DNA of 64,000 bases from Mobula hypostoma (Eukaryota), in assembly GCF_963921235.1 (NCBI RefSeq), contig NC_086108.1, positions 61,878,001-61,942,000 of the forward strand, read 5' to 3'. The position numbers and the translations under genes are program-made. Below the pieces are notes generated by a model. That model saw nothing but the letters and a program-made list of their open reading frames with translations, searched no databases and had not been told where the DNA came from. Position 1 is the stretch's first letter; every line of letters begins with the position of its first letter. Positions 2,850 through 29,119 of this stretch are shown here, in pieces.

Positions 2850-3290
2850 AAATTGTCAAGGAAGTGTTCTGATGTTATGGATCGATCACTCTGTTATAGG
2901 AAAGGCTCAGCTGGACTGGATGCGGAAGAGATTTTCAAGAGTGCTATCTGGACCAAAAGACTTGAGTTATAGGGAGAGGTTAGTCACACTAGAATTTTAC
3001 TGCCTGGCATGCAGAAGAATGAGCGGAGAGCCCATGGAGATGTATAAAACTAGGAAGGGTATGGATAAGATGAAGGATCATAGTCTTATCCCCAGGGTTT
3101 GGGAGTCCAAAACTCAAGGGCACAGATACAAGAGCAGAGAGTTTTAAAAGAGACTTGAGAGGTAATTTCTTTACACAAAGGGAAGCGGGTATTTGGAATG
3201 CGTTGTTAGAGGAAGTGGTCGAGGCAGGTACAATTGCAACATTTAAGAGGCACTTAGAGAGGTACATGGAAAGGCAGGTCTTTTTTCGTG
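2850..3290 (+). mobile_element. CR1 LINE 3' fragment
   Basis: KRFSRVLSGPKDLSYRERL...RRMSGEPMEMYK is the CR1 ORF2 C-terminal motif. Confidence 0.8.
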
Positions 3291-9740: not shown

Positions 9741-12700
9741 ATTTTTTCTTACAGTTATTGCATGAAGATCACATTCACAGTGCCACTGGATGGATAGACC
9801 CCACACTTTGATTCAAGGAGCTAGTCTTTGGCCATGGCAAAAACATGGTTAAAAAGGACCCTGGAAGACACAGGGAAACCCCTCTATAATTACCACAGTA
9901 AGATTTTTCTCCTCTTTGAGGAATTAGCACATTTATGCAGTGAGCTAATTAACCTTTCTAATTATAATTCTATTAGTTAGGATTATAACCCAATTTCAAG
10001 TGCATTAAATGGTATGATAACTGGAAAGTTACAATGTGATCTAAAACTAAAGGTCATTGCTATAACAGCTCAAAATAGCAAACTCAGGGGATCATCTTTG
10101 AGATCATGAGAATGGTGTTCGGGGAAAACATCTTGGCAGATTATCACATCAGAGTAAAATCTTCCAGAACTTCTAGAAGAAGAAAAATCTTGGGCAGATT
10201 TAATTCCAATTGTTAGTGCTTGCTGGATTAAAGAGGAATCCAGAGTGGTCAGAAAGTAGAGCTGCAGTCAAGACCAGGTCAGCCAAAATCTAGCTGCTAA
10301 ACGGACGTAATTATAGTACTTACCTAGATGTTTCTCTGCTGTCTGCATCAGGAGAAGTCGTTGCTTGATTCCTCCTCAACCATTTCTTTTCAGTGTCTGA
10401 TATTCTTTGCCACAATAGTTACAGCACAGACTCAGCCAACTGAGGAGCAAAATTTACCATACAACAAAGCAGGAAAATGTAGGGAGTGGTGGCAACAGAG
10501 ACTTTCACAGCATTTAAGTATCTAGAATCATCAAAGCAGAGAAGGCCATGGACTAAGTGCTGGAAAATGGGGTTAATATAGATAGGTACTTGATAGGTCA
10601 AAGGGGTCTTTTTCTGCACCATATGACTATTTGTACCAAGCACAACATCAAATTGAAAATCTGTTAAACTTACCTAATGAGAAACAAATCATATGGGAAG
10701 GCAACATCACCTACAGTAGCAGGGGTCGGAGGAAAAATGACATGTAGAGCAATTTATGAAGAATATTAGAATCGCTGCAGTATGATAGAAAGCCATTTGG
10801 CCCAACAAGCCCATTATGAACTTTTGAAACAGCATTTTAGTCAGTTTTATTCTGAACACATTACGCAGATTTTCATGGAGTTATCAAAGACTTTTGGAGG
10901 ATTTTTTGTAAAGCACTGGTTGTAGACCAGTAAAACTGCAGGGTGGTGAGAGAGAGGGGTAAATTCTTGGAGGGTTTGAATGTAAAAAATATAATAATGA
11001 AATGAAGACATTACTCAACCAAGTTATTTAATTGATGTCAGAAATAAAATTTACTAAGAGTGATCCTTAGAAATAGTTAAAGATGGGTAAATTAGACTTA
11101 TAACCCAATAGATTCTTGTGATTAATTAATATGTCACTTACCTAATTATTTTGATGAAGGTAACCGATTACAAAACAGAAAGGGAAACGGAAAAAGAAGG
11201 AAACTCAATATTTGAAGCAAATGGTGATTTGATTCAATCTATATTTCTGTATCTTTCTAGGAAGGATAGGTTCTACTTAGAATCTTTTCTTAAAATATAA
11301 TTTTATTACTTTGGTAACCATGGAAACTAAGGATAACTTGCTGACTTCCCATCACGATTTCATCAAGGCCATTTAAAAACTAGAATTAATGACCATTCTG
11401 GACAACATTGGCATATCACTGCAGTAAATATTATCTGCCAGTGGGATAAATGATCAACTAAAATTATTGGAGAGTGAGAGACAATCTAATATAGTGCTAC
11501 ATTGCAGATTCCAGATTTGAAAATTCTACTACATTTGAAGTTATTGTCAGAGCAGTCTTCATTTTTTGCTGAGACTTATGTCAGTATAATTTGGATCTAC
11601 AAAGCTCTTCATATCACATTATATTAGAACACTATTTTGAACTAACACATTAAAAATAGATGCAGATTTAATATTAATGTGAAGAATAGAGTAACTCTCC
11701 AACTGTCACAGATTACCTGAATATATTATGGATGGGAAGACAGGGAAAGGTTGCACTCAATGTTCCCAAGGATTGCAGAAACTATTAATGAAAGAGAGTG
11801 GGTAACTGATATGCTCAGGGGCTCTGATTTAAAAATGGAACTGGCATGATGGAGGAGAAGTGTCACCCGAGTATTTCACAGACCAATATTCTGAAGAAGC
11901 GCTACATTAGATCCAGTGTATCAATACGTTTTGCCGATGAGCAATATGATACCAAAGGGTCCAGCTTGAATCCTTGCTGGGCAACAGCCTTGATCATTTA
12001 TATGGATAAAGTTTTCAAATGGTATTCTCATCTATCTGTAGCAGATGGTTGAAAAATAGAGAACAATGAATTAAATACATCTCTGTTTCTTAATCCTTAA
12101 GATCGCGTCCTTTGTGTTTCTGCACTTCCAGTATTGGTGCAAGTTAGTTGGTCTAAAAACATTGCAAAAATTTTTTTATGGAAAATATTTTCTTTGTTCT
12201 CTTTCCTCCAATACAAAACAAATAATTCATCTTCCCATAGACTCCTCATTTGCCTAGATTCTCCACAGCATTCATGGGAAGGCAGGGGCATCACATAGGC
12301 AGCAGAAACAGAATAACAACGGTCTCTTAATATAATGGTTTGTCTACGTAGACTGTAGCCCTTTGACTTCGCTTTGTGCTGAAATGCATACTAGTGCCAT
12401 AAAGCCACAACAGCCTCTTTCATTCTCACCTAATTAAGTGATAAATATCTTGTCATCCCCAGTAATATACATTATTAACAAAGCATTGCTTGCAAGATCA
12501 GACACACAAATTGTGCATCAGCTTTAAGGATACAGAATCTTTTTCAATTGCAAATGAAATTTGGTTTTACTGTGCATTTATTATACTGAGGATTACTTCT
12601 TTCCAGAAACACGATTTTTCCCTTTTAAATTTTAGCTTGTTGCTCTTCTGACAACAACTGAAGTGGTAATTTTAAGCCAACAGGCATCAGATTACAAATC

Positions 12701-13839: not shown

Positions 13840-14137
13840 ACAATAGCACACTTAATGTCGTTTGACAGGAGCTTTGAAAAGATCCCAGATAGCAGATTAG
13901 TCAGTAAGGTAAAATCCAAAGGAGGAATGGCAAGTTGGATCAAAAATAAGCTGAATAGCATACACCAAGGGGTATTGATCGATTGATGGAGATGTTTAAA
14001 ACATGGCAACTTTTTCAGTGAAGTTTCCCAGCCATCCTTGCTTTTTGTAATATATATTTGTGATTAGACCAAAATGGAGGAGCATCCTTAAGAAACTTGC
14101 ATATGATAGAGAAAACTTCTGCCACAAGGTTAATTGT
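13840..14137 (+). mobile_element. Ancient CR1 RT fragment, left half of the provirus target site (continues at 27907-27960)
   Basis: Decayed KAFDKVP...WI...KFADD region ending AAGGTTAATTGT. Joined to AAGGAAGAAAGC at 27911 it reads KVNC-KEES, like CR1 KVNCEED. Confidence 0.65.
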
Positions 14138-14396
14138 TCTGATGGCACTGGGTTTGCTGACCACGAAGTTCAAAACTCTTATGAAGATCTTAAGCCCTAT
14201 CCGATATAGATAGCTACAGGAATCCTCACTAAAGGGAGGTTATACTGCAACCACCTACTCTACAAAAGCTAGTTCATTTCCCTGTTTATCCTTCACAGGG
14301 AGTTGAGCTGCCGATATCCATAATTTGAGCAGTGTGCCCCCATCCCAACCAAGGAGGATATGCTTCCAGCTGACAAAGTAGATTAAACACAGTTCA

Positions 14397-14402
14397 TTTA
14401 TT
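14397..14402 (-). terminator. LTR polyadenylation signal AATAAA (also at 27255-27260 in the 5' LTR)
   Basis: TTTATT on the + strand, conserved in both LTR copies about 260-270 nt from the U5 end. Confidence 0.6.
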
Positions 14403-14602
14403 TATAGTGATACATGTTTAAATTTAGATAAATTCTTAAATCATATTTAAAACTTAGAGGATTTCTATCTTATAAAAGATAAAAAGATTACAAAGGATTT
14501 CCAAAACACAGGTACAATTCCTATAAGCTAAAAATACATACCAACAAGTTGCAGATGAACAAATTGTCCATTGCAGAAATCAAAAGCAGAGGAATGGATT
14601 CT

Positions 14603-14681
14603 AGTTTACCTCGTCTTTCTCTCATTCTTCTTGTTGTTCCTTGACCGTTCCTCACAGCCTGACTGCTCTCACACATTTATA
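14603..14681 (-). promoter_or_regulatory. Putative LTR TATA box (14675-14681) and R-region major splice donor (GAG|GTAAACT, about 14603-14612)
   Basis: Minus strand TATAAAT followed about 65 nt downstream by GAGGTAAACT. Foamy viruses place the major splice donor early in R. Confidence 0.5.
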
Positions 14682-14771
14682 CTGTGTTTTTTTTATCACT
14701 TTGGTGACTTCATGTGATTTTTTTTTCAGATACCTTTTCACATAGGTGGTCTAAAAGCTTCTGGGGACAGA

Positions 14772-15865
14772 CTTCTGCTGTCATCAATGACGCCCTCACG
14801 CGCATCTCCTCCATTTCCCGCACTTCGGCCCTCACCCCATCTTCCCGCCATCACAACAGGGACAGAGTTCCCCTTGTCCTCACCTACCACCCCACCAGCC
14901 TCCGGATCCAGCGCATTATCCTCCACAACTTCCCCCACCTTCAACAGGGCCCCACCACTAAGCACACCTTTCCCTCTCCACCCCTCTCCGCCTTCCGCAG
15001 GGATCGGTCCCTCCGCGACTCCCTGGTCCACATATCCCTTCCCACAGATCTCCCACCTGGCACTTATCCCTGTAAGCGCAAGTGCTACACCTGTCCCTAC
15101 ACTTCCTCTCTTGTCACCATTCAGGGCCCCAAACAGTACTTCCAAGTGAGGCAACACTTCACTTGTGAGTCTGTTGGGATGATCTATTGTAACTGGTGCT
15201 CCCGGTGTGGCCTCCTCTACATCGGTGAAACCCGACGCAGATTGGGGGACCGCTTCGTCGAGCACCTCCGCTCCATCCGCCACAACAGACAGGATCTCCT
15301 AGTAGCCACCCACTTCAACTCTGCTTCCCACTCCCATTCAGATATGTCCATACATGGCCTCCTCTACTGCCATGATGAGGCTAAACTCAGGTTGGAGGAA
15401 CAGCACTTCATATACCGTCTAGGTAGTCTCCAGCCCCTTGGTATGAACATAGAATTCTCCAAGTTCTGGTCATTCCCTCCCCCTCCCTTTCTCTATCCCT
15501 ATGTCACTCTGCCCCCTCCCCCAGCTGCCTACCACCTCCCACTTGGTTCCACCTCCTTCACTATCCATTGTGCGTTCCCCTTTTCCTTCTTCACCTTTCC
15601 TGCCTATCACCTCCCTGCTTCCCCTCCCCCACCCCTTTACCTTCCCTCTTACTGTTTTTTCACCAGGAACCTACCAGCCTTCTCCTTCCCACCCTTCCCC
15701 CACCTTCTTTATAGGGCCTCTGCCCCTTCCCTCTACAGTCCTGACGAAGGATTCTGGCCCGAAATGTCGACCGATCGTTTCCACAGATGCTGCCCGACCT
15801 GCTGAGCTCCTCCAGCATGTTGTGAGTGCTGCTTTGACCCCAGCATCTGCAGAATATTTTGTGTT
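14772..15865 (+). mobile_element. Penelope-like element 3' portion (GIY-YIG endonuclease region and terminal repeat)
   Basis: ORF 14714..15805 has CKRKCYTC, IYCNWCSRCGLLYIGETRRRLGDRFVEH, VATHF and GMN motifs typical of the PLE GIY-YIG domain. Confidence 0.92.
15736..15773 (+). ncRNA. Minimal type I hammerhead ribozyme motif in the Penelope terminal repeat (slightly decayed)
   Basis: CAGTC-CTGACGA-AGGATTCTGGCCC-GAAAT-GTC-GACCG. Confidence 0.6.
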
Positions 15866-15883
15866 AGTGAATATCCATCACAA

Positions 15884-15904
15884 TCCTCCCCATTCCCACT
15901 CCTT
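15884..15904 (-). promoter_or_regulatory. Polypurine tract of the provirus
   Basis: Minus strand AAGGAGTGGGAATGGGGAGGA lies one base before TGTGATGG, the start of the 3' LTR. Confidence 0.8.
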
Positions 15905-16048
15905 GCTATGTAAAAATTTCTAATCCAGCTTCTCCCTACAGAAATCAGTTGTGCCATCAGACTTCTGCAAAAACTTCTCTTGGGAGTAGACTATCACTCC
16001 ACCAACCATTCCAGTAGGTTACCAGTGCTGGAAGACCCTGCCTTGATC

Positions 16049-16279
16049 AGATGCTCAAAGAACTCATTGAGTTCTTATTTAATTTAATATTTGATATATT
16101 TTTCTGTGATCGTATGCTTTACTTGCTATCTTATATGTGCTATATGTGCCTTGTGCTGTCTGTGACTGTTTGGTACTGCGTTTTGCACCTTGGCCCCCAG
16201 AGGAACACTGTTTCATTTGGCTGTATTCATGGGTATGCATGTATGGTTGAATGACAACTAAACTTGAACTTGAACTTGA
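16049..16279 (+). mobile_element. Short non-LTR retroelement 3' end nested in the provirus
   Basis: Ends in an (AACTTG)n tail at 16261-16278. Confidence 0.55.
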
Positions 16280-17059
16280 GTATTTCCCAATGTAGGGATT
16301 TCTGTGTGAATTTTTCTTTGTATTCATTTCCTTAATCTCAGCTGTGCACATTTCTGCAATCTCAAAGGATTGTTACCAATATAATTTTTCCATAAATGTG
16401 CAACCACAATGCATCAATGTCTATATTAGTCCATTTTTAAGATTTTCTGCCTCAGAAACAGTTTTTGCTATTTCCTTGATGCAAGTTTGGATCACTGTCT
16501 GTCGCTGTTAGTTCATCAGGTCAGCTGGTAATGTCTTTCAATAAACCGAAGATAGTTCATTTCTTTCACAGGAGTGTTGGCATTGCTTTGGATACGGTGC
16601 AAAATTTTATTCAGATTTTCCAAGAACAAGTCTTGTAAACAATTTACTAATTACATATGGCTGTATTCTTTTGCCTAAGTATTACATTTTAGTTACAGTC
16701 AGTTACACAATTTCACAACATAATAAAAATCATAGTGGATAATCATCACTTATTGAGGTAACCTGCCTCAATATGTGTAGTGAGGTAAGGACAAGTATAT
16801 TACTCCTCTAGAGGATTCTTTCTGTTCTTTTAATTTTGGATGACCAGATAAAAAGGTGTCAGAACATAGGGATTTGTTATTTCTCTCCAATGGGAGTGAA
16901 CACCCATTGGTGTGCTGTAGCTTGGCATTTTGATACCATCTCCATAAATTTCTTCCCATTTTGATGATTCTGGACTCTAGTTGTAATTGTCCAGGTCTCC
17001 CCACTCCCTCCCCATTTATTTTGTTAAGGATTGGACCTGACTGAGAAGAATGACACACC

Positions 17060-17648
17060 CTGAAAAATGAAGTGGCTCTGGAGACGGGTTGAAGGTCAGT
17101 GTCAGGGCAGGAAATCGGTGTGAAATGGTAGATGGAAGATCTAAGGCTGTGTGCCCAAAGACCTGAGATCTTTGGGCACAGAGCTCAGAAAAAGCGACGC
17201 AACGGACTTCTAACATCGTAAACCAGTGAGTTGTTTGTCATGTCACCCCTCTCGCTGTGGAACAGAGACACTCCTTTCTCCCTTATTAGGAAGAGAGAGA
17301 GAGCCTGTGGTATGTCAAATACTGGGTGAATGAGCAGTCTTTGGAGTACTGCAAGTCTGTGTCTTTGCTGTTGCTTTGCTCACGCTTGAGTGCTCAGTGC
17401 CAGGTGCCAATGCTTTTTTTTGCTGGTGGGGGTGGGGGGATTGTTGCTTGCTGCCACTTACACACAGGAGAGAGGGGAGCTGGGGGTACTTTGGGGTTCT
17501 AACGTTCAACTGTCATTCATTCTTTGGGGCATTCCTCTGTTTTTCGTGGATGGTTGCAAAAAAAAAAAGCATTTCAGGATGTATATTGTAAACACTTCTC
17601 TGACATTAAATGTATCTTTGAAACTTTGAAACTTCAAAACTTCAAAAC
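17060..17648 (+). mobile_element. Non-autonomous retroelement (SINE-like) nested in env
   Basis: GC-richer body ending in ATTAAA plus a tandem (CTTTGAAA/CTTCAAAA) tail at 17617-17648. Confidence 0.55.
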
Positions 17649-17803
17649 CTTCACACTTTTGTGTTTTCCCAGAAAACTTTAACTGCGCACGGGCTACCAG
17701 TCTGTTCTATTAGACCATGGGATTTTGTCAACCGAATATTCTGATTCTGCTTGAAACGTTAAGAATAACACAAATGGCAGTATTGGTAGGCTGAGTGGTC
17801 CCA

Positions 17804-18188
17804 CAAGGGGTGATTTACAAGTTCGTGGCCTAAGGTAGAAGGAGTCAGTTTTAGAAAACCAAGCACATTTAATTTTCAACATAGTCCCCTCCTTCATGTA
17901 CACACACAGTTCCAGCGGTCGTGGAGCATACGGATCTTGGACGTCCAGAAAGTGTCCATAGTGAGGGTGATTGATAAGTTCGTGGCCTAAGGTAGAAGGA
18001 GATGAGTTATTAATTTCAAACTTTCTGCGTAATCACTCAAAGCATTGAACTGCATGTGCATGTAACGAGAGCCGTATAACTCATCTCTTTCTAAGTGTAG
18101 GAGGGGACTATGTTGAAAAATAAATGTGCTCGGTTTTCTAAAATTGACTCCTTCTACCTTAGGCCACGAACTTATCAATCACCCCTTG
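17804..18188. mobile_element. Mariner-derived MITE with a third, internal TIR copy
   Basis: Termini CAAGGGGTGAT...AAGTTCGTGGCCTAAGGTAGAAGG and its reverse complement, followed by TA. Internal TIR copy at 17962-18000. Confidence 0.85.
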
Positions 18189-18354
18189 TATGTAATATCT
18201 AAATAGGTGAGTAAAAAGATGTTTGTCGACTCATCTTTCTGTGGGATTGTGTAATTAGACCAATTATTTGCAACATCCCAACTCCCGACCACAACTGCCC
18301 CACCCCCAAGATGAGGCAAGAATCATGCATACCCTTTCACAAAGTTAGTGATCA

Positions 18355-18870
18355 GGACTAAGAAACGAAGAGGACAAGGATAACATGATTAAGGCAGTCC
18401 CCGCACTTCGCTCTTCTGGGGCTGAAGATGAACTGGAGGAATGGATAAAAGACGAGTACGAGGCAGTGCTTAGCAAAGTAGACATACTTTGCAGGGTACT
18501 GCAGGTCAGATATTGGATTTGGTGGAGTCCTGAGAGTGGAGCCGTTATACAAAAGGCAGAAGCCACCTAAAATCTCTCATTGCTGGCTTCAATATTTCAA
18601 CAGAAAGAGCACTATAAAATAATAGTACCATGGCTAGAGGAATCATGCATTGGAAAACTGCAAGAAAAGATCTTATTACCCAATTTAACGTAGTGTCAAT
18701 TCTCCCAGAGACTGTATTCACTGCTGCAGAAGTTAAAACAGCAACATCCGGAAAGGTCAAAGCTATTGTTTGACCTGCAGTCAGGGAATTAGTATAGATT
18801 TAGAAGGAAAACTGTGAAAGGAGGTACCTTTCTCATCTGATTGTGTATTGAGAAATATTCTTTTGATTTA
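18355..18870 (+). pseudogene. Gag-like pseudo-ORF (possibly the foamy Gag central domain) in inverted orientation inside env
   Basis: One frame with 2 stops reads IKAV...DELEEWIKDEYEAVLSKVDILCRVLQ...RLYSLLQKLKQQH, resembling PFV Gag IRSV...REIPIWLGRNAPAI...DLRCRIIN...QLGNVIKGIVDQEG. Confidence 0.4.
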
Positions 18871-18874
18871 AATG

Positions 18875-19280
18875 AGATTTTTCTAGACAAATATCAGGTC
18901 CTTCTAGAATATTCTTTGTTGCCTCTATAATGAATCTTTCCTTAAAACCAGACTTGCATTTTTGTCCTGAGCTACGCATCATGAATTAAATAATCAGATT
19001 ACTCCATGAGCCATTTCCTTTATAAACCTCCGATATTGGTATGTCTGAACAATTTTTGTCATCAGAAATTTTTATCTTCTGAGTGAACTGAAAGATCACA
19101 TCAGTGTTACTCTGAGAGTGAACACTCAATGCCATGGCTGTACAGGCAGTTTTACTCTAATATTTTTTAAAATAACATGAAAAATTGTTAAGGGCTAAAT
19201 TGTTGGTTTTTGCTTGTGATAATAATACCATGCAATTGAATACATGGGAATAATTGAAGGTTTGTCTGTGTAACGTTACA
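18875..19280 (-). pseudogene. env: Foamy-like Env SU C-terminal remnant
   Basis: ACTAMALSVHSQSNTDVIFQFTQKIKISDDKNCSDIPISEVYKG parallels PFV ECKLASKAYGIDTVLFSLKNFLNYTGTPVNEMPNARAFVG. Confidence 0.5.
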
Positions 19281-19282
19281 TA

Positions 19283-21232
19283 CAATGCATATTCTGCCCC
19301 CACAACTATTTTCACATTTTACTGTCTCATTTTCTAAATTTAAAATATATTGAAGTTCAACTTTTGAGCTAACCTACAAAACATCGTGCATCGCATCGAA
19401 TAAAAGTAAAATTTCCAAAACCTAAAAAATTAAAAACCAAAATCGTGAAGCTGAAAAAATATTCATCCCCTTTGTAATTACTACACTAATTTAGAGTTAT
19501 AAATCTAGTCGGCTTCATCTTGCGTACTGGCTTACAAAGTACCCAGGACATCTTCAGGGAGCGGTGTCTCAGAAAGGCAGTGTCCATTATTAAGGACCTC
19601 CAGTACCCAGGGCATGTCCTTTTCTCACTGTTAGCATCAGGTAGGAGGTACAGAAGCCTGAAGGCACACACTCAGCGATTCAGGAACAGCTTCTTCCCCT
19701 CTGCCATCCAATTCCTAAATGGACATTGAACCCTTGGACACTACCTCACTTTTTTTACTATACAGTATTTCTGTTTTTTGCATGTTTTTTAATTTATTCA
19801 ATATACATATACTGTAATTGATTTACTAATTTATCATTATTATTTATTTTACTTCTCTTCTATATTATGTATTGCTGCTACTAAGTTAACAAATTTCACG
19901 TCACATGCAGGCGATTATAAACCTGATTCCAATTCTGATTTCCTTAGGTGCAATACTGAATATTACCTTACCAATCTGTCAATGTAGAAAATTGGAGGGT
20001 CACCTATTTTCAATGAAGTCATAACAATAAATACCACTCTATCAGTAAGATCCAATGGTATGGTAGAATTTCAAGAGACCAAACCAAAATGAAAACAAAA
20101 GAGCATTCAAGACAAGTCAGGGAAATGATAATAAAGAAGCACAAATCTGGGGAAAAGGATTAGACCATCTTAAAAGCACTGAACTTAACTCAGAGCACCA
20201 TGGAGTCCATCATGAAATAGTGGGAAAAAATATGAAACCACAGTCACACTGCCCAGGTCAGGCCGCCCCTCTAAATTTAGCCGCAGGAGAAGAATACCAC
20301 TTATAAGAGACCCTACTGTGACACCATCAGTCAATCTGAATGAGCTGCAGAAGTCAGTGGTTGCAACTGCAGATGCATTTCCTATCTCCACAATCTCCTC
20401 GGTCTTGCACAAAAAGGGTACTTATGGAAGAGTGGCAAGGAAGAAGCCTTGGCTGAAGAAAATGTATCCTTGCCCATAAAGACTTTGAAAAGCATCACTT
20501 GGGAGATACTGTAAAGACTTGTAAGAAGGTCTTGTGGTCGGATGAGCCAAAAGTAAACTTTTTGGCCTCAACACTAAAAAGTATGTGTGTCTTAAATCTA
20601 ATACTGTGCATCAACCAGTAAACACCACCCCTACCATAAAGAATGGCAGAGGTAGCATCATGCTATGGGAATACCTTTCAGCAACAGAGACTGGAAAATC
20701 CGGTCAGGATTGGAAAATCCGGTCAGGATTGATGGGAAGATGAATGCTGCTATTTACAGAGAAATCCTGGATAAAAACCTGCTAGCTTAAAATGGGGCGG
20801 ATGTTTGTCTTTCAGCAGGACAATGACCCAAAGCACACTGCCAGAGCATCACCAGAGTGACTTCAAATGAAGAAAGTTGTCCTTGAGTAGCTTAGTGAGA
20901 GTCTGAGCCTAACCCGATCAAATATCTCTGGTAAGGCCTTGAGAATGCTGTCCACCGCCACTCCCCAACTAACCTGGCACAGCTTGAGTACTTCGGAGGA
21001 GGAATAGGCAAATCTTGCTCCATCATGTTGTGCAAAGCTAATAGAGGCTTTTCCAAAAAGACTACAGGCTGCAATAATTGCGAGAGGTGATTAACACTGA
21101 GCAATGGGGAATGAATACTTTGGAACTGCTGGTATTTCAGTTTTGAGTTTTTAGTTTGTCATGCTTTACAATTTTACCTGATTTAGGGCTCTACTGTGGG
21201 AAAAAAAGGAGCACGTGATTCACATGTGACTG
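19283..21232 (+). mobile_element. Tc1-like DNA transposon with decayed transposase (about 20088-21090) and a nested Rex1/Babar 3' fragment (about 19490-19940)
   Basis: MKTKEHSRQVRE, LPRSGRPSK, VLWSDE and FQQDNDPKH motifs. Inverted inner repeats AAAATATTCATCCCC (about 19456-19470) and GGGGAATGAATACTTTT (about 21106-21121). Confidence 0.9.
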
Positions 21233-21239
21233 TTCAACT

Positions 21240-21550
21240 AAAAGCAAGTAGGAAATCCAGGTGGGTACAATAAAATCTCTAAAGAGCTCATTTGACTTCT
21301 CAGTTTCATCTCACCAGGGAGGAAAACATTTTTTTTTATTTTACCTTCTGCTTCAGTGCATCTTTCCATCTTATTTTCCCATGCAAAAATCAGATCAAGA
21401 GCTTTGCTGAGCCATTTAGAATATAAACCAGTAATGCTGCAAACTACTGTTCCTGTTACCATGACATTTAACGGTGGAGTAGAATCGTGGCCAGAATTAG
21501 AGAAGTTGAAATATCTGAAGTCTTCATAGTATGTATATTTGTATACTTGT
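21240..21550 (-). pseudogene. env: Foamy-like Env SU middle remnant
   Basis: VVCSITGLYSKW and KIKKNVFLPGEM parallel PFV LFCSDQLYSNW and LKKRALPKDW. Confidence 0.55.
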
Positions 21551-21599
21551 TTAGTATACTAAAATAAAAGTACAATGACATGTCTGTCTAAAGTAGAAG

Positions 21600-21822
21600 A
21601 GTCAATTAAAATGTTTTTTCACAATGTTCTAGTCTAACAATTTCAAAGTCATGTTTCTCATATTTCTCAATACACAAACGGATGAGCGAGGCACCTCTTT
21701 CACAAGTTTTCTCTGCAAACCCATACTAAGCCCATAACTAGCTTAACGCTCCAGCTGGAACAATAACTAAGACCTTCCCAGCTGTTGTAATTTTAACTCC
21801 TGCAGCAGCAAATACAGTTTCC
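21600..21822 (-). pseudogene. Second copy of the gag-like segment
   Basis: Reverse complement of 21660-21821 aligns to 18708-18858 (13 mismatches in the first 63 nt). It reads KLYLLLQELKLQQ...KEVPRSSVCVLRN. Confidence 0.45.
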
Positions 21823-22125
21823 ATGCAACACACACAAAATGCTGGAGGAACTCAGCAGGCCAGGCAGCATCTATAGAAAAGAGTGCAGTTGATGTTTTGG
21901 GCCGAGACCCTTCATCAGGGCTGGAGAAAAAAAGATGAGGAGTCAGAGGAAGAAGGCTGGGGGAGGGGAGGAAGAAACACAAGGTGATAGGTGAAACTGG
22001 GGGGAGGGGTGAGTGATGAGGTAAAGAGCTGGGAAGTTGATTGGTGAGAGAGATACAGGGCTGGAGAAGGGGAATCTGATAGAAGAGGACAGAAGGCCAT
22101 GGAAGAAAGAAAAGGGGGAGGATTT
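21823..22125 (-). mobile_element. Penelope terminal-repeat fragment with decayed hammerhead motif (21886-21923)
   Basis: Minus strand CAGCC-CTGATGA-AGGGTCTCGGCCC-AAAAC-ATC-AACTG, then GATGCTGCCTGGCCTGCTGAGTTCCTCCAGCATTTTGTG. Confidence 0.85.
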
Positions 22126-22129
22126 GATG

Positions 22130-22875
22130 AGTGGGACTAATCGGTGACATAACGGTGTCTGTGCTTTCCTGAAGGTCCAGAAGGATCCATGTCAGGAGAT
22201 TTCCCTACTTGGTTACCTTCAATATCTGGGCTGGAGTCTTTTAGTTTTGTTAAAGGGTCGTGAATCATTTTTGCAAGTGATTCTTTGCCTTCCCACGTAT
22301 CTATGTTCACTTCATCCGCAATGCGGTCAGAGTGAATGTTTAAGTGGACAGGAACAATCGCTTTGCCGGAGGCAAGGATGAAGGATTCCAGTGTATTAGT
22401 TCACACATGAACAAGAGGTAAGGGCCATCTGGTGATATTTAAATTAGTATCATCATTACTCACAGAGGTTCTTACTCTAATATTTTCTGAGTCATTATGT
22501 TTCGGGGTGTCCAAGCCAGATGAGGCAATTTCAGTGGCAAATACTACTTCTTCTGCTAAAGAGCAAATGGTAAGTAAGGCAGCACTGAATTATATTGTTA
22601 TGAACACAAATATTAAAAATAAAGCATAACAAGAGGAGCATTTCTTCCTGAAGTTTGAGTCTTTCTTACTCCAACAACAACAATGCATTTTGAGTGCGTT
22701 ATTCATGGGCAATACATCTATGAAATCTTCCTCAAGTGAACAGGAATCTCTATTTTTTTTAGATCTAAACATGTGCTATATCTTTTCAATACTTCTCACC
22801 ACACCTCTTCTCTCACTAGGTGTAGGGGTTTTATGGCGTACTCACATACCAGTCAAATGTAAGGGTTCCACTCAT
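22130..22875 (-). pseudogene. env: Foamy-like Env leader peptide and SU N-terminus
   Basis: Candidate start MSGTLTFDW overlapping the IN end. Hydrophobic span CYALFLIFVFITI*FSAALLTIC. Furin-like RVRTS. LNIHSDRIADEVNIDTWEGKESLAKMIHDPLTKLKD versus PFV MINSENIANNANLTQEVKKLLTEMVNEEMQSLSD. Confidence 0.7.
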
Positions 22876-23179
22876 TCTGGGGGATAAATCCTGCTGGGGC
22901 AGCTTTGATGTTCTCTATGGAGACCACTTTACTGATAGTTTTGTTTCCCCTCCCAGTCTTGATTACCACAGTCCTATCATTGATAAGCCAGGTAACAAGA
23001 CAAGAAGGTTTCTATTTAGGATGGAAACTAGAGTTAGAATTATAATTATAAATTTTGTTTTCTAGGACCCAATCCACTTTTTGTGGTATAAATACTTCCT
23101 TATCAGGTTATTTTGGTTTCTCTTGAATTCCCATAAACCCTGTCAACTCCTTGAGGAGAGATGTATCAGGTATACGCAA
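22860..23179 (-). pseudogene. pol: Foamy-like integrase C-terminal (SH3-like) domain
   Basis: SLLKEL...SFHPK*KPSCLVTWLINDRTVVIKTGRGNKTISKVVSIENIK versus PFV SLLQEI...[39 protein letters not shown]. Confidence 0.85.
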
Positions 23180-23181
23180 TA

Positions 23182-24517
23182 CAGGTGACCCCGCTTTTCG
23201 AACGTTCGCTTTAGAAAATATCACTGTTACGAAATAGCTACATTAGTACCCTGTTTTCGCTAACAGAAGGTTTTTTCACTGTTACGAAAAAAGTGACACG
23301 CGAAAAATGACGGCGTGTGGGAAAAAAAGCAGCATGCGCCCCAAGCAGCCAAGCTCCTCCCCCAGAACTGCATTCTAGCCGCCATTGCTTAAACACGTGC
23401 TTTATCTCGATTTATTTTGTGCATCCATTAGCAAGGTGAGTTCGAAGGTATCGGAAAAGCCTAAAAGAGCTCGGAAGGGTGTTACACTTAGCGTAAAACT
23501 AGACATAATTAAGCATTTCAATTGTGGTGATCGAAGTAAGGACATTGTCCGTGCATTGAACTTGCCTGCATCCACCATTCACACTATTTACACACAGAGA
23601 GAAAAAATCTTGAAAGCTGCCGATGTTACTGTTGGTTCTGCTCGTAGCAAAGTGGTCTCTCTTAGTCAGCATCCAGTAATGGATAAAATGGAAAGTCTAT
23701 TGCTTGAGTGGATTGGTGGATGTACACAACGTGGTGTTCCTTTAAGTTATCTTATACTTATGGAGAAATCAGTCAGTCTTTTTAATAAGCTGAAACAGAA
23801 AGCACTGGCCGATGGTGATGAAAGTGTTGTGAAAGTGGAATTTAAAGGTAGTCATGGGTGGTTTGATCGGTTTCTGAGGCAAGGGCAGCTTCATAGTTTA
23901 ACGTTTACCGGAGGGAGTGCTTTGGCTGATACTGAAGCTGCTGAGAGGTTCCCAGCAGAACTGAAGAAAATAATTACAGAAGGTGGTTATTGGTATAAGC
24001 AAGTGTTTAACTGTGACAAAACTGCAATTTATTGGAAAAAATTGCCGAGTAAGACATTTATTTCGAAAGAAGAAAAGCAGGCTAAGGGACACAAGGCATC
24101 GAAGGACAGGTTTACCCTAATACCTATTATTAACGCCACTAAGCTTCTACTAGGGTACCATTCAGAAAATCCGAGGGCACTTAAAGGCGTTGATAAGAAA
24201 ACACTTCCCGTTGTGTTCCATTCACATCCAAGCAGTTGGAACACCCAAGTGCTATTTTCTGAGTACATGAGCAGATACGTTAGTCCTTTTGTTGAAAAAT
24301 ACTGTTGAGAAAATAACCTCGATAATAGGTGTCTTGTGATTGTCGATAATTGTGCTGCTCATCCGCCTGATATTACCGAGTATGGCAGTAACATTCGTAT
24401 TGCGCTCTTACCGCAATACGAATGTTACTGCCATACTCGGTAATGTCAAACGGATGAGCAGCACAATTATCGACAATCACAAGACACCTATTATCGAGGT
24501 TATTTTCTCAACAGTAT
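23182..24517 (+). mobile_element. Tigger/pogo transposon, 3'-truncated, with transposase ORF 23385..24308 and a terminal foldback
   Basis: TA followed by TIR CAGGTGACCCCGC. HTH_psq and CENP-B-like HTH regions, FKGSHGWFDRF, QVFNCDKTAIYWKKLP, KDRFTL. Confidence 0.92.
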
Positions 24518-24700
24518 GGAAACAGGTCAGACTGGCCAACAGATCTCTGGTGAAGCTGTATAAGCCAATCGCCTGTACAGTCAATACAATGGATTACAGA
24601 AACAATGGTGAACTCCAACCATACCATCGAATTTGGACAATGGAGCAGGAAGTCATAAATGGCCTATGCTCCACTGGGAGCTAAGGGCCCAAGAAGAAAA
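24518..24700 (+). mobile_element. Probable RTE-type retroelement 3' end
   Basis: Ends GGCCTATGCTCCACTGGGAGCTAAGGGCCC-AAGAAGAA, resembling RTE 3' termini with a GAA tail. Confidence 0.4.
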
Positions 24701-25140
24701 TATAATCAATTTTCCACACATGCATTTGTGTAGTTGGTTTTATTTGTCTAATAGGTGGTGGGCTTGTGACTGCTCCTTTATGATAGACCAGGCATTCTTC
24801 ACAATTTGCAATAAATTGCTTCCAATCACCTAGCATGTAAGGTAACCAGTATAACATAGCTAATTTCGTATGAGTGGCTTGTCTGTCACATTAATTGTGT
24901 CCGAATCCTTGGTGGGCTTCTCAGATCAGTGCTTCCAGCTTGTGGGCAGGAGATATTTGCTTCTGTTTTCTAGGGTGGCAAACCCAAACCTTACCTTCAC
25001 CATTAGCTTCATACTTGTACGGTATTGGAAATTGTTTGGAATTGGGCTCAGTAGTATCCAGGAGAATTCTTAAAACATCGTCCCAGTTATTTTTCATTTT
25101 TTGTTTAGTTACTACTAAAAACCTGGCTTCCCTCTGCGTT
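24700..25140 (-). pseudogene. pol: Foamy-like integrase N-terminal extension and HHCC zinc-binding domain
   Basis: EAHQGFGHN*CDRQATHTKLAMLYWLPYMLGDWKQFIANCEECL...SPPPIRQIKP...WKIDYI versus PFV [40 protein letters not shown]...SGPILRPDRP...FFIDYI. Confidence 0.88.
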
Positions 25141-26024
25141 GTAAGGTCCATCCCGACAGCTTGTTTTGCTTGCTCATTGACTAGTTTATTACCGTAGCTG
25201 TGTAAGAGGCCTGCAGTATATACCAGAATGTAAAACTTGTACTAATAGTTGAATCAATAACAATTCATAAATATTCTTTCATGTGGACAAAGGTGGAAGC
25301 AGTTTACCTCTGTGTGTTCTCCATCTAATTGTTGACCAGATTGGAAGATCTCTTTCTACTGCATTCCTAACATAATTAGAGTCAGTACAGATCAAGGCTG
25401 GTTCTGTTTAATTTACATGTTTTAGACATCATTCTAGGGCTTTTGCCTCTGCTAATTGAGCTGTATGATTTTCTGAAAGATTCATGTAGTTCAAATTCAG
25501 TTTCAAATAAAAATAAATTCCTTTTATAATCCCTGCTCCTGCCTGTAGTTGAGAGGATCCATCTTTTTGGATTTCCATTGTTGATCCATCCTGGTACTGG
25601 ACTATAACTGAGAACAGTGCTCTAAAAGATGTGCTACACTGGGCCATGGAGAAGGTGGTTCTGTATCTTCCATGACAGTCAAGGATTGTAAATTATACCT
25701 CTGAGGAACATATTCCCACTTTAAGGTGTCAACTTGTAAAGTGTTTGCCATATCCCATAGCTAGTTATGGTAGCTCTCTGTTCATTTGTTGGTAATGTAC
25801 TTTTGTTTCTCAAAGCCAAAACTCTGTTTGTATAGTAATTGGTTTGTTCCCTTGCAGTGGTCATACTACAAATAAGTGTATATAACAAGACATCATTCTA
25901 AGGCAGTAAATTTCTGTTCTGTTAGAGTGAAATTATATGAGGCATAGTGTCTGGTGGCTTGTGCTTTTTCTCCCTTAATATAGCAGATGGCTACAGCAGT
26001 TTTTGGATTCACAGAACTAAGTTC
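25140..26024 (-). pseudogene. pol: Foamy-like Pol connection domain and RNase H
   Basis: YASYNFTLTEQKFTALE, YQDGS, AGAGI, NHTAQLAEAKALE, PALICTDSNYV...RDLPIW and LHSYGNKLVNEQA versus PFV YLNYVFSKAELKFSMLE, YTDGS, AGMGI, NHTAQMAEIAAVE, PVLVITDSFYV...KELPYW and IHTEGNALADKLA. Confidence 0.92.
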
Positions 26025-26880
26025 ATTAAGAACTAAATTTATATCAAACTACATACTGTATAAGTCACCATATACAACCTTGAAATTCATTTTCTTGCAC
26101 ACATACTCAATCTATCCATCAAATAATAACTTTAACAGAATCGGTGAAAGACTGCACCAACCTGGGCATTCAACCAGTGTGCAAAAGTCAACAAACTGTG
26201 CAAATACAAAAAAGAAGGAAATAATCTAATAAATAAGCAACAAATATTGAGAACATGAAAAGAAGAGTCCTTGAAAGTGAGTCCATTGGTTGCGGGAACA
26301 TTTCAGTGATAGGGCAGGTGAAGTTGAGTGAGGTTATCCCCGCTGGCTCGAGAGCCTGGTGGTTGGAGGGTACTAGCTGCTCCTTAATGTAGTGGTGTGG
26401 GTCCTAAGGCTCCTGTACTTCCTTCCTGATGGCAGCAGCGTGAAGAGAGTATGCCCTGGGTGCTGGGGGGTCCCTGATGATGGATGCTGTTTTCCTGTGC
26501 ACATTTTTCATGTAGATGTGCTCACTGGTGGAGAGGACTTCACCCATGATGGGCTGAGCTGTATCCACTACTTTTTGTAGGATTTTCTGTTCAAGCACAT
26601 TGGTCTTTCCAAACCAGGCTGTGATGCAGCCCATTAATATACTATCCACTACACACCTTTAAAAATTTGTCGAAAATTTAGATATCATGCCGAATCTTTG
26701 TGAATTCCTAAGGAAGTAGAGACTTTGCTGCGTTTTGTTCATACTTCCATTTACAAGTTGGGCCCAGGACAGATCCTCCAAAATAATAAATATTTAAACC
26801 GAGGAACTTAAAGTTGCTAACCGTCTCCACCTCTGATCCTTCGATAAGGACTGGCTCAGGGACCTCTGGCTTTCTTCAGC
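26025..26880 (-). mobile_element. Rex1/Babar-type LINE 3' fragment nested in the provirus
   Basis: DSILMGCITAWFG...LQKVVDTAQ...ASIIRDP (DUF1891-like C-terminus). Confidence 0.85.
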
Positions 26881-26962
26881 GCTACAGTGCTTGTTGAACA
26901 TGCTCCGAGTTGAACTACTGCTAAATAATGATACTCTGTAAAGTAATACTTTTGGTATAACA

Positions 26963-26980
26963 TGACCACATTGGCTGCCA
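26963..26980 (-). promoter_or_regulatory. Primer-binding site, degenerate tRNA-Lys1,2 type
   Basis: Minus strand TGGCAGCCAATGTGGTCA versus Lys1,2 PBS TGGCGCCCAACGTGGGGC (12 of the first 15 match; two changes are CpG-type). It lies 2 nt after the 5' LTR. Confidence 0.7.
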
Positions 26981-26982
26981 AC

Positions 26983-27906
26983 TCTGATTGTATTGGGTTT
27001 GCTGACCGTGAGGTTCTGAACTCTAATGAAGATCTTAAGTCCTATCTGATATAGATGGCTACAGGAATCCTCACTAAAGGGAAGTTATACTGTAAGCACC
27101 TACTCTACAAATGCTAACTTACTACCCTGATTATCCTCTGTGGTGAGTTTAGCTATCAATACCCACTAACTGAGTGGTGGAACCCCCCCCCCCACCCCTC
27201 CCCTACCGAGGAGGAGATACTTCCAGCTGATAAAAGTAGTTTAAACACAGTTCATTTATTTTTAATGATACATATTTAAATTTAGATAAAATTTTAAAAC
27301 CCGCTTAAAACTCTGAGGATTTCCATCTTGTAAATTTTTTCTAAATTACAAACTATTTCTAATACAAAGTATTTCCAAAACCAGGTACAATTCCTATAAG
27401 CTAAAAAGACATTTTCACATAGGTGGTCTAAAAGCTTCTGGGGACAGAGTTGCCAGATACTCACAATAAATGCTGTGATATTGACCTTTTGGGTACCCAA
27501 ATCTTCCAGATATTAATAGATCACCTATTTGATATCAGTCTGGTCTTTGGGCTTTCTTAAACAAAATAATTTAGCCAGTGTTGTCTGGTTTGATACAAGC
27601 CCAATTAACATAACCCCATTGTTTTACACTGCATCTCTTAAGCAGTCAGCTCCGTGCCATGGGCTTGCAGTCTGTGCTCTATAGACAGTGCTGTCCTTTT
27701 CACTTCACACTGATTATTGCTTTCCATATACATTAAGAACTGAAGACTGGCTCCCATTTATGACAAGAAGCTGAACATAGAGTATTGGCTGGAAGTTTAA
27801 CTTAAACAAAAACTAGTTTTTGGTCTCTAGAAGATTCAGCTGCTATGTTAGAAAGCTGAGCTTGGCAAAAAGCCTCCCTGGCCCTGGACAGTGAATGTCC
27901 ATCACA
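26983..27906 (-). repeat. 5' LTR of the foamy-like provirus (924 bp; lacks a ~195-bp segment kept in the 3' LTR)
   Basis: Direct repeat of 14138-15882, starting TGTGATGG on the minus strand and flanked by the TTGT TSD. Confidence 0.9.
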
Positions 27907-29119
27907 TTGTAAGGAAGAAAGCTGCCGTCTAGGAAGATGGTAACAGATGAGTCAGGTAGACAGGAGCTTGCCATCAATTACTGCTTGGGCTTTCTCTCCT
28001 CTTTCTCACTATCCACCCATTTTCCTGAGGCATTCTGCTCACTGGGGTTGGTGTAACTTTTCCCTTGTTCACTGGAACGGGCTTCTCAAGGATTCAAAGT
28101 ACATTTATTCTCAAAGTATATACACAGTATATACTCTTCTTCCCACAAACAACCATGAAACAAAAACAAAACATGGTACCCATTCAAAGAAAAGCATCAA
28201 ACCCCAACATGCAAAGCAAAAAGAAAACAAATCACGCAATGGTAAAATAAAAGAGCATACAGCACCCAGTATAAAATCCCAAACCAGATAGTCATCGAAG
28301 GAGTCAAGGCACATTCAGTCCAGCTCAGTTCAGCCCAGCCCAGTGCTGTGTCTTCATTATCTGCAGCACTGTTGTGGATTCCTTCCCATGCAATGCAACA
28401 AATTAGCTATGACACAGCTCGTCTTCTACAATAGCTGTTTAATTTTAAAGTTCTTTATTCTCAATTTTTAAGGAGTATATTGTCCATTGCTAGATAAATG
28501 GATTAAAGGCAGCCATGAAGTGTAAGACTTTAGCTTTATTTGCCAGAGCCAGCTATGTAGACACAAGCACAATCTGAACAGGTGATGCCTAATGAAATGA
28601 GACAGGTAGAAGGACTAACAAGTATTTTATTTTGTCTTCTCTTCCTGAGGAATGTTTTCTCAGATCATTAGGTTAGCATAAATCATTCAGGTACGGTTAA
28701 AAGCCCTTTGGCAGATCTTAGACTGCAGAAGTAGCCATATTATACATTAATTATTTCCACCAATCCAAGTTTCACATTGATCTTGAACAGAATTTTAAAT
28801 TTTGTCTTTACAGAATAATTTTTTTGCTTTTACACATGCCACCTTGACGTTGGCCAAGCAAACACCAGCACTTCTCAGAACTTTTATTCCTTGTCACACA
28901 AAGGGATGATTCCCCACCGATATGTACGGTGCTTCATACCAAAGCTGACGGATCTTATTGAAATTATAGTTTAGAACCTCAGGCAGCTGCTGTGGCAGAG
29001 TCTTTGCATATATTACAGTCAGAGACTAACAGACAATTAAACTACAAATGAGTTGTGGGACAAGCAGAGAATGGAAGTTGTGTTTAAGCTAAGATTGGAT
29101 CAGCCTTGACTGCTAATTC

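What the first reader, a model, noticed from the sequence alone, without database searches (positions are those of the whole stretch)
14138..27906. Hidden endogenous foamy-like retrovirus in a probable elasmobranch genome
Seen in sequence: after removing about ten nested insertions, the minus strand reads LTR-PBS-(deletion)-connection/RNase H-integrase-env-PPT-LTR. The diagnostic motifs resemble foamy virus proteins much more than Gypsy or orthoretroviral ones: NHTAQLAEAKALE, TDSNYV...DLPIW, ATHTKLAMLYWLPYM...CEECL and INDRTVVI...VSIENIK. Established knowledge: foamy viruses use tRNA-Lys1,2, make 4-bp TSDs, have long LTRs and encode Env with a long leader peptide; all four fit here. Foamy-like ERVs are known from ray-finned fish, amphibians, coelacanth and a chimaera. 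Inference: a ray or shark copy retaining both LTRs and env would bear on the deep marine origin of spumaviruses. I cannot confirm from here that this lineage is undescribed.
Basis: partly seen in the sequence, partly recalled or inferred. Interest (0 to 1): 0.95.

Follow-up and report, generated by a model that had tools for sequence, protein, structure and literature searches.

The report
Decayed foamy-like endogenous retrovirus in ray
This is one old, badly broken copy of a foamy-virus-like retrovirus family that colonised the germ line of a ray ancestor, and it extends a known kind of viral fossil to rays with more of the virus still recognisable than in earlier shark reports.

Summary
On the minus strand of 14138-27906 lies an LTR-flanked provirus with a 4-bp target duplication, a tRNA-Lys(CTT)-type primer site, RNase H, part of integrase, an env-like region and a polypurine tract. 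At least eight other mobile elements are nested in it.

The foamy-like reading is supported:
- The window's own RNase H and integrase N-terminus match only foamy-virus chains in the PDB, at E 5e-13 and 1e-8.
- The best hit among 1.84 billion proteins is feline foamy virus Pol.
- A sibling copy carries the spumavirus Gag central domain above Pfam's cut-off.
- A Pol tree puts the family in the foamy/foamy-like clade (SH-aLRT 99). An AU test rejects a place with gamma-, delta- and lentiviruses (p 4e-37).

Env homology shows only by profile-profile comparison (91.8% and 42.7% probability, colinear over FV Env 72-391). Pfam PF03408 gives nothing.

The element is not unique: the genome holds hundreds of decayed copies. 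The two LTRs differ by K2P 0.18, and the same insertion is bridged in contigs of two other organisms.

Foamy-like ERVs were already reported from a chimaera and a catshark, so this is a new member of a known kind. Epsilon-, ERV-L- and lokiretrovirus references could not be obtained.

The parts
27907..27910 (-). Target-site duplication, 5' side (ACAA on the minus strand)
   Evidence: Sequence read. The same 4 bases follow the 3' LTR.
26983..27906 (-). 5' LTR, 924 nt. It lacks about 190 nt that the 3' LTR and sibling copies carry.
   Evidence: Direct repeats. Sibling LTR matches. Depth step and loose ends at 27906 in four runs.
26963..26980 (-). Primer binding site, 2 nt after the LTR. It is complementary to the 3' end of the host tRNA-Lys(CTT).
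   Evidence: 12 of 18 positions match the complement of the genome's own tRNA-Lys(CTT)+CCA. Seven siblings match at 11-14 of 18.
26005..26868 (-). Scar of the gag-pro-RT deletion, filled by the 3' part of a LINE. This is nested sequence, not viral.
   Evidence: Sibling homology stops at about 26005. The same LINE piece continues from RNase H in one sibling as a single 1673-nt match.
25153..26004 (-). RT connection remnant and RNase H (RNase H about 25599-25164), with in-frame stops and one frameshift.
   Evidence: Pfam RNase_H PF00075, E 3.3e-6, 27.7 bits against a cut-off of 25.8. The top five PDB hits are all foamy-virus RNase H or PR-RT, E 5.2e-13 to 2.5e-11; the next hit is E. coli RNase HI at 0.025.
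24700..25152 (-). Integrase N-terminal extension domain, HHCC zinc domain and the start of the core.
   Evidence: All five PDB hits are prototype foamy virus integrase, E 1.3e-8. Integrase_H2C2 E 1.8e-5, 25.2 bits, just under the cut-off of 25.5.
23181..24699 (+). Nested pogo/Tc5-like DNA transposon that stands where about 480 nt of integrase core are missing.
   Evidence: CENP-B_N E 2.5e-7, plus HTH_Tnp_Tc5 and DDE_1, in ORF 23379-24308. The sibling has 486 nt here instead.
22900..23180 (-). Integrase C-terminal part (SH3-like region with INDRTVVI...VSIENIK).
   Evidence: Colinear with siblings whose homologous stretch hits SH3_11 at E 7e-5 and 0.0032, both under the cut-off, and FV Pol HMM positions 953-1124. 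The window's own stretch finds no foamy chain in the PDB.
22128..22808 (-). Env-like ORF, N-terminal block: basic N-terminus, hydrophobic span 22640-22593, then the start of the surface subunit. It has 2 in-frame stops.
   Evidence: Alignment A1 (window plus 15 sibling fragments) against 12 foamy Env: probability 91.8%, E 7.5e-7, FV Env 72-241. Control against FV Pol: probability 0.06%.
21269..21652 (-). Env-like block B (surface subunit), frameshifted.
   Evidence: Alignment A3 against foamy Env: probability 42.7%, E 2.5e-4, FV Env 216-391, continuing block A. The same FV region was hit from four further seeds.
18545..19272 (-). C-terminal part of the env-like region, with a hydrophobic anchor-like span near 18691-18600.
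   Evidence: Shared with 4-6 of 10 siblings. The hydrophobic run is read from the translation. Matches to the FV Env C-terminus were no better than antisense controls.
15908..18544 (-). Post-env internal region, in pieces (18189-18544, 17655-17804, 16276-17057, 15908-16075) between nested repeats. It lies where foamy viruses carry accessory genes.
   Evidence: The pieces are colinear in siblings. No family hit was found.
15883..15907 (-). Polypurine tract directly before the 3' LTR.
   Evidence: Sequence read.
15861..15882 (-). First 22 nt of the 3' LTR.
   Evidence: It begins like the 5' LTR.
14775..15860 (+). Nested element with a weak GIY-YIG match (Penelope-like). It replaces about 430 nt of the 3' LTR.
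   Evidence: GIY-YIG E 0.0051, under the cut-off. The LTR register was read.
14138..14774 (-). Remainder of the 3' LTR.
14134..14137 (-). Target-site duplication, 3' side (ACAA).

Best explanation
The stretch is one germ-line copy of a foamy-like (spumaretrovirus-related) endogenous retrovirus family of a ray. An ancestral virus with the layout LTR-PBS(Lys CTT)-gag-pro-pol-env-further region-PPT-LTR integrated here with a 4-bp target duplication. That happened before several present-day organisms split, and the copy has decayed neutrally since. It lost gag, protease and RT by a deletion next to a LINE insertion. It lost the integrase core at a pogo-like transposon. It lost part of its 3' LTR at a Penelope-like element. 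It has also gathered stops, frameshifts and further nested repeats. It is dead and does nothing as a virus today. Shown here: the anatomy, the kinship of Pol, Gag and the N-terminal half of Env with foamy viruses, the multi-copy family, and the shared insertion. Inferred: the original gene order of this copy (taken from siblings), amplification by reinfection or retrotransposition, and the age in years.
For: Anatomy: LTR pair, TSD, PBS and PPT. Copy 8, the only sibling of the ten with both ends found, also has a 4-bp duplication, so 2 of 2 elements with both ends show it. Pol: the window's RNase H finds foamy chains as its top 5 of 37 PDB hits. The window's integrase N-terminus finds PFV integrase in 5 of 5 hits. 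A sibling RT-RH-IN stretch of 599 aa finds foamy chains in 6 of 6 hits, E 1.1e-27. That stretch gave only 17 hits at E<=0.001 among 1.84 billion proteins. The top hit is feline foamy virus Pol at 6.4e-19. Of the 10 of these 17 whose names were looked up, one (a Logan record) carries no name and the other eight are salamander, frog, teleost and catshark ORFs; another of the 17 (P0013, not among the ten) carries Gag_FV_central. An HMM built from six foamy Pol sequences hits all ten siblings and the window, with E down to 1e-33. Gag: PF20672 in sibling L014 at E 1.1e-7, 32 bits against a cut-off of 30. Env: hhalign probability 91.8% and 42.7%, colinear. Controls: probability 0.06% against FV Pol, and a best E of 0.01 among 9 antisense profiles, against 3-5e-5 for the two sense profiles that hit. 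Tree of 52 rows: the family (11 rows, SH-aLRT 100) sits inside a foamy/foamy-like clade of 29 rows (99), next to a catshark RT (86). An AU test rejects joining it to gamma-, delta- and lenti-type viruses (delta lnL 145.7, p 4e-37). Age: LTR K2P 0.18 over 444 sites. The insertion junction is bridged in contigs of organism B (4 differences in 277) and organism D (32 differences and 6 gaps in 398).
Against: Pfam Foamy_virus_ENV gave no hit in the window or in 15 frames of five siblings. An HMM of six foamy Env sequences found nothing above antisense noise. No homology was found to the fusion (TM) subunit, which is the best-conserved part of foamy Env. Spuma_A9PTase was not found in 15 frames of five siblings. 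Gag_FV_central was seen in 1 of 5 siblings scanned. The window's integrase C-terminus finds no foamy chain. SH3_11 and Integrase_H2C2 scores lie under Pfam's cut-offs. The tree has no epsilon-, ERV-L/class III or lokiretrovirus rows. It uses a quick search with SH-aLRT only. It also flags long branches and uneven letter make-up.
Confidence: 0.92

Rival explanations
1. It belongs to a retroviral lineage that is related to, but lies outside, the foamy/FLERV clade (class III ERV-L-like, epsilon-like or lokiretrovirus-like). On this view the foamy hits only reflect which references were at hand.
For: No reference of these three groups could be fetched. One frog ERV row (Xenopus15), the 15th of the 17 hits of the sibling query (E 4.9e-6), falls outside both main clades in the tree. 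No Spuma_A9PTase hit was found.
Against: The spumavirus-specific Gag central domain scores above its cut-off. There are colinear profile matches to foamy Env 72-391. The family nests inside the clade between a teleost ERV and the salamander plus mammalian foamy rows, with SH-aLRT 99. The PDB holds many gamma- and lentiviral RT, RNase H and IN chains, and none reached E<=1.
Confidence: 0.06
2. It is a Gypsy/Metaviridae LTR retrotransposon that acquired an env-like ORF.
For: Integrase_H2C2 is shared with Gypsy elements. Some database names for related ORFs read 'Gypsy retrotransposon integrase-like'.
Against: Eight Gypsy rows form the outgroup, and the branch separating them from all 44 retroviral rows has SH-aLRT 100. 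The RNase H is of the added PF00075 type. No chromodomain was found. The Gag and Env matches are to foamy viruses.
Confidence: 0.01

Closest known systems
ERV-Spuma.0-Sca of the small-spotted catshark (PMC10699275, 2023; abstract, passages and supplement tables searched)
   Same: It is a foamy-like ERV of an elasmobranch, classified by Pol. In my tree the ray family's nearest named row is an RT-bearing ORF of another catshark species (SH-aLRT 86, long branch).
   Different: [quoted passage not shown] Here a spumavirus Gag domain and an Env N-terminal match are found. Its screen listed three batoids (Amblyraja, Leucoraja, Pristis) but reported no ray element. I could not compare the sequences themselves.
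CmiFLERV / CmiERV of the elephant shark, a chimaera (PMC5512871 and PMC4422223; passages of the first read, the second seen in a search listing only)
   Same: A chondrichthyan foamy-like ERV lineage that is basal to tetrapod foamy viruses.
   Different: Only pol could be detected there. The ray family also keeps LTRs, PBS, a gag domain, env and a post-env region.
Teleost and salamander FLERVs (AciFLERV, AliFLERV, NviFLERV; PMC5512871)
   Same: LTR-gag-pol-env plus a further region before the 3' LTR. AciFLERV and AliFLERV also have a tRNA-Lys primer site, and the elements have TSDs.
   Different: Those elements are young (LTR distances 0.2-1.1% for AciFLERV). The window's LTRs differ by 18%. 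Their acc genes were not compared here.
Exogenous mammalian foamy viruses (feline, simian, equine, bovine)
   Same: Pol is the best match anywhere. Also shared are the Gag central domain, the Env leader-peptide/SU architecture, the Lys(CTT) primer and the 4-bp TSD. That these viruses use that primer and make 4-bp duplications is established knowledge, recalled here.
   Different: Pol identity is only 24-30%. No protease or Env-TM match was found. The ray family is endogenous, multi-copy and dead.

Membership tests
Foamy-like ERVs (Spumaretrovirinae and FLERVs) | RT-RNase H-integrase closest to foamy viruses and placed in their clade | tested here: met
   The caveat is that no epsilon, ERV-L or lokiretrovirus rows were included.
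Foamy-like ERVs (Spumaretrovirinae and FLERVs) | Spumavirus-type Gag (conserved central domain) | tested here: met
   PF20672 at E 1.1e-7, 32 bits against a cut-off of 30, in 1 of 5 sibling copies scanned. The FV Gag HMM gave E 4e-6 on the same copy. The window copy has lost gag.
Foamy-like ERVs (Spumaretrovirinae and FLERVs) | Foamy-type Env with a long membrane-spanning leader peptide | tested here: inconclusive
   Met by hhalign (91.8% and 42.7%, FV Env 72-391, with controls in 50 and 61). Not met by Pfam PF03408 or by the FV Env HMM. The fusion subunit was not matched.
Foamy-like ERVs (Spumaretrovirinae and FLERVs) | Spumavirus A9 protease at the start of Pol | tested here: inconclusive
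   No PF03539 hit in 15 frames of five siblings. FV Pol HMM matches begin at position 120. This may be decay or divergence.
Foamy-like ERVs (Spumaretrovirinae and FLERVs) | Primer binding site for tRNA-Lys1,2 (anticodon CUU) | tested here: met
   The window matches 12 of 18 positions and siblings 11-14 of 18 against the genome's own tRNA-Lys(CTT) 3' end. The chance of 12 or more matches at a fixed place is 2e-4. Other tRNAs of the genome were not compared.
Foamy-like ERVs (Spumaretrovirinae and FLERVs) | 4-bp target-site duplication | tested here: met
   The window (ACAA) and sibling copy 8 (AATG) both show it, which is 2 of 2 elements with both ends found. Gammaretroviruses also make 4 bp (recalled), so this feature is not exclusive.
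Foamy-like ERVs (Spumaretrovirinae and FLERVs) | Accessory genes between env and the 3' LTR; Pol made from its own spliced mRNA | not testable with these tools
   About 2.6 kb of family sequence lies after the env-like region, but no ORF or family match was found in it. Expression cannot be read from dead copies.
Orthoretrovirinae (gamma-, delta-, lenti-type) | Pol groups with these genera | tested here: not met
   The tree and AU test give p 4e-37. The outgroup labels were checked through their Gag Pfam families.
Gypsy/Metaviridae | Pol groups with Gypsy; no added RNase H | tested here: not met
Epsilonretroviruses, ERV-L/class III, lokiretroviruses | Pol groups with these | not tested
   No reference sequence could be obtained.

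The most novel reading that the evidence does not exclude
Rays hold a foamy-like lineage that kept env, multiplied to hundreds of germ-line copies and spawned a gag-deleted derivative that also spread. Together with catshark elements it forms a chondrichthyan branch of the foamy clade old enough to be shared across ray species. If so, it would give the first near-complete gene map (gag, pol, env, post-env region, PBS) of a cartilaginous-fish foamy-like virus. It would also give a calibration point for the deep, marine history of spumaviruses.
Probability: 0.4. Interest if true: 0.6.

Novelty: new member of a known kind. Interest (0 to 1): 0.45.

Why it matters
Foamy viruses are the retroviral lineage used to argue for a marine, early Palaeozoic origin of retroviruses. 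Cartilaginous fishes are the thinnest part of that record: only pol in a chimaera, and a Pol-only element in a catshark. A ray family with recognisable LTRs, primer site, Gag domain, Pol and part of Env adds a third chondrichthyan host group. Its insertions are shared between species, which gives material for dating and for testing virus-host co-divergence. It does not change the current picture.

Tried and rejected
- Pfam on the three minus frames of the window gave no env or gag family. Pfam on the env regions of five siblings found only a nested LINE RT and weak noise.
- An HMM of six foamy Env sequences, run against six-frame translations, gave best E values of 0.017-0.039, and two of the top three were on antisense frames.
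- Matches of the env C-terminus to the FV Env membrane anchor (E 0.14-0.2) were no better than antisense profiles hitting the same hydrophobic region.
- Two long open frames near env-like matches (795 and 389 aa) are LINE reverse transcriptases, not intact env.
- A search with feline foamy Env found only mammalian foamy Env, 20 of 20 hits, so it gave no bridging sequences.
- The first PDB query for the integrase C-terminus was in the wrong frame. The right frame found no foamy chain.
- The search for related loci with a mixed Pol alignment failed for lack of a conserved stretch. A general RT pattern had too few fixed bases. Epsilonretrovirus references were therefore not obtained.
- Run X20 (organism F) has a contig across the junction with only 30 letters on the LTR side, under the tool's 31-letter rule, so it is not counted.
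- Chen et al. 2021 (J Virol) is not held. Its preprint abstract concerns amphibians.

Full report
**What is there**

On the minus strand the stretch reads as an LTR-flanked provirus.
- The 5' LTR runs 27906 to 26983. The 3' LTR starts at 15882, is interrupted after 22 nt, and resumes at 14774 to 14138.
- Four repeat blocks join the two LTRs at 79-95% identity.
- The same four bases, ACAA, flank both ends.
- Two bases after the 5' LTR lies an 18-nt primer-site candidate (26980-26963).
- A purine run (15907-15883) lies directly before the 3' LTR.
- When contigs of four public runs are laid on 27600-28200, depth falls from hundreds or thousands to 5-13 at about 27906-27914. Many contigs stop fitting at 27906. 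That marks the repeat boundary independently.

**It is one copy of a large, old family**

The RNase H-integrase DNA has 44 listed matches (283 candidates, 40 scored) elsewhere in the 3.48-Gb genome, at 73-80% identity. The env-like N-terminal protein has 153 matches (449 candidates, 150 scored). Nearly all listed matches contain stop codons; 4 short partial ones have none. I fetched ten sibling copies (20 kb each) and six further env regions.

Mapping them on the window separates family sequence from nested repeats.
- Family sequence is 14138-14774, 15861-16075, 16276-17057, 17655-17804, 18189-19272, 21269-21652, 22127-23180, 24700-26004 and 26869-27906.
- Between these lie a weakly GIY-YIG-like (Penelope-like) element, a Tc1/mariner remnant, a pogo/Tc5-like transposon, a LINE tail and others.

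**How this copy is broken**

- Siblings carry RT upstream of the point that matches window 26005. The window has only a LINE fragment there, followed by the leader and LTR. So gag, protease and RT are deleted.
- Between 24700 and 23180 a sibling has 486 nt of integrase core. The window has a 1.5-kb pogo-like element instead.
- About 430 nt of the 3' LTR are replaced by a 1.1-kb insertion. The 5' LTR lacks about 190 nt that the 3' LTR and siblings have.
- The remaining reading frames hold stops and frameshifts.

**Pol is foamy-like**

Read with X at the stops, the window's RNase H meets Pfam PF00075 above its cut-off. Its top five PDB matches are all foamy-virus PR-RT or RNase H (E 5.2e-13 to 2.5e-11). 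The next match is E. coli RNase HI at 0.025, and no gamma- or lentiviral chain reaches E 1.

The window's integrase N-terminus matches prototype foamy virus integrase in 5 of 5 hits (E 1.3e-8). A 599-aa one-frame stretch of a sibling (RT C-terminal half to integrase zinc domain) finds foamy chains in 6 of 6 hits, E 1.1e-27.

Scored against 1.84 billion representative proteins, that stretch has 17 hits at E<=0.001.
- The best hit is feline foamy virus Pol (6.4e-19).
- Ten of the 17 were looked up by name. Besides that Pol, one (a Logan record) carries no name; the other eight are ORFs from newts, a frog, a teleost and a catshark.
- Another of the 17, not among those ten, carries the spumavirus Gag domain.

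**Tree**

The tree had 52 rows: 11 from the ray family (pieces chained with X at each break), 10 foamy viruses, 10 ERV ORFs, 5 gamma-type, 4 delta-type and 4 lenti-type viruses from IMG/VR, and 8 Gypsy rows. The IMG/VR labels were checked through their Gag Pfam families.

A quick IQ-TREE search (LG+G4, 1056 columns) gave these results:
- The family forms one clade (SH-aLRT 100).
- It sits inside a foamy/foamy-like clade of 29 rows (99).
- It lies next to a catshark RT row (86) and an unnamed sequence (97).
- It is sister to salamander ERVs plus mammalian foamy viruses (98).

Forcing the family together with the gamma-, delta- and lenti-type rows costs 145.7 log-likelihood units (AU p 4e-37). 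The tree flags long branches and uneven composition. It lacks epsilon, ERV-L and lokiretrovirus rows, which I could not obtain.

**Gag**

The window has none. In five siblings scanned in three frames each, one shows the spumavirus Gag central domain PF20672 at E 1.1e-7, 32 bits against a cut-off of 30. A profile of six foamy Gag proteins hits the same place at E 4e-6. No spumavirus protease family was found.

**Env**

After integrase comes a shared reading frame. It has a basic start, a long hydrophobic span (22640-22593 in the window) and an N-glycosylation-type motif. In several siblings a dibasic furin-type motif follows, which is degraded in the window.

Direct sequence-to-profile searches found nothing:
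- Pfam PF03408 finds nothing in the window or in five siblings.
- A foamy Env HMM also finds nothing.

Profile-profile comparison does find it:
- The window plus 15 sibling fragments, against 12 foamy Env, gives probability 91.8%, E 7.5e-7, over FV Env 72-241.
- The next block gives 42.7%, E 2.5e-4, over FV Env 216-391, colinear with the first.

Controls and replicates:
- The first block against foamy Pol gives probability 0.06%.
- Nine antisense profiles give E 0.01 or worse, against 3-5e-5 for the two sense profiles that hit.
- Other seeds hit the same two FV regions again.

So the leader-peptide span and the lower half of the surface subunit look homologous. The fusion subunit was not matched, and the C-terminal anchor match is no better than noise.

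**Primer site and target duplication**

The genome has 18 sites of a tRNA-Lys 3' motif against 1 for the reversed control. ARAGORN calls tRNA-Lys(CTT) at all three sites fetched. Against the complement of that tRNA's last 18 nt with CCA, the window's site matches 12 of 18. Seven siblings match 11-14 of 18, and one or two of the mismatches in each are CpG transitions. The last three positions differ in all copies. Of the ten siblings, only one had both ends found, and it has a 4-bp duplication too.

**Age**

The LTRs differ by K2P 0.18 over 444 aligned sites. With the rate of 0.5e-9 per site per year that PMC10699275 assumes for a catshark, this would be about 180 million years. With 1e-9 it would be about 90 million years. 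Both figures are inferences from a borrowed rate.

Independently, contigs bridge the LTR-flank junction in organism A (0 differences; possibly the source), organism B (4 in 277) and organism D (32 plus 6 gaps in 398). So the insertion predates their split.

**What is known**

- Foamy-like ERVs are described from a chimaera, where only pol was detectable (PMC5512871, passages).
- One is described from the small-spotted catshark, with no Gag or Env domains (PMC10699275, passages and supplement search). That screen listed three batoids but reported no ray element.
- Six searches of the held library turned up no foamy-like ERV of a ray or skate. Papers outside the library could exist.
- Earlier notes of this scan call the genome a ray. 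I did not test that.

**Verdict**

The element is an ordinary dead copy of a multi-copy family. It is a new member of a known kind, with modest added value for the chondrichthyan part of foamy-virus history.

Noticed in passing
window 25229-26868; sibling L013/L014 (joint 10022-11591): The LINE fragment next to RNase H in the window continues as one 1673-nt match (74%) into a single sibling copy on another contig. In that sibling the LINE lies between RT and RNase H. Two copies thus share a nested insertion at the same place. This suggests a LINE-carrying provirus was itself copied, or that a segment was duplicated.
   Followed up: partly
sibling loci L010, L016, L019, L026 versus L014, L018, L022, L024, L027: Four of ten sibling copies share the same internal junction, which skips roughly 1.3-1.9 kb between the leader and RT. 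That is the part holding the Gag central domain in other copies. A gag-deleted derivative therefore seems to have multiplied.
   Followed up: partly
window 23181-24699: A pogo/Tc5-like transposon with a 309-aa open frame (CENP-B_N, HTH_Tnp_Tc5, start of DDE_1). It also has a 219-nt stretch, 24299-24517, that matches its own reverse complement at 95%. DDE-like residues are read on the opposite strand beyond it, so the element seems internally inverted.
   Followed up: no
window 28083-28124: A 40-nt stretch just outside the provirus has contig depth of about 60,000-125,000 in all four runs laid. It is a very abundant short repeat of these genomes.
   Followed up: no
L029 3520-5628; L020 about 2400-3100: LINE reverse transcriptase ORFs (702 aa open in L029; RVT_1 E 3.5e-30 in L020) are inserted inside env regions of sibling copies. 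In L029 the LINE frame runs on in frame into env-like residues.
   Followed up: no
protein P0014 (catshark annotation): A public catshark protein model fuses a foamy-like RT fragment to a PR/SET domain (PRDM-type). This is probably a gene-model artefact over an ERV insertion.
   Followed up: no
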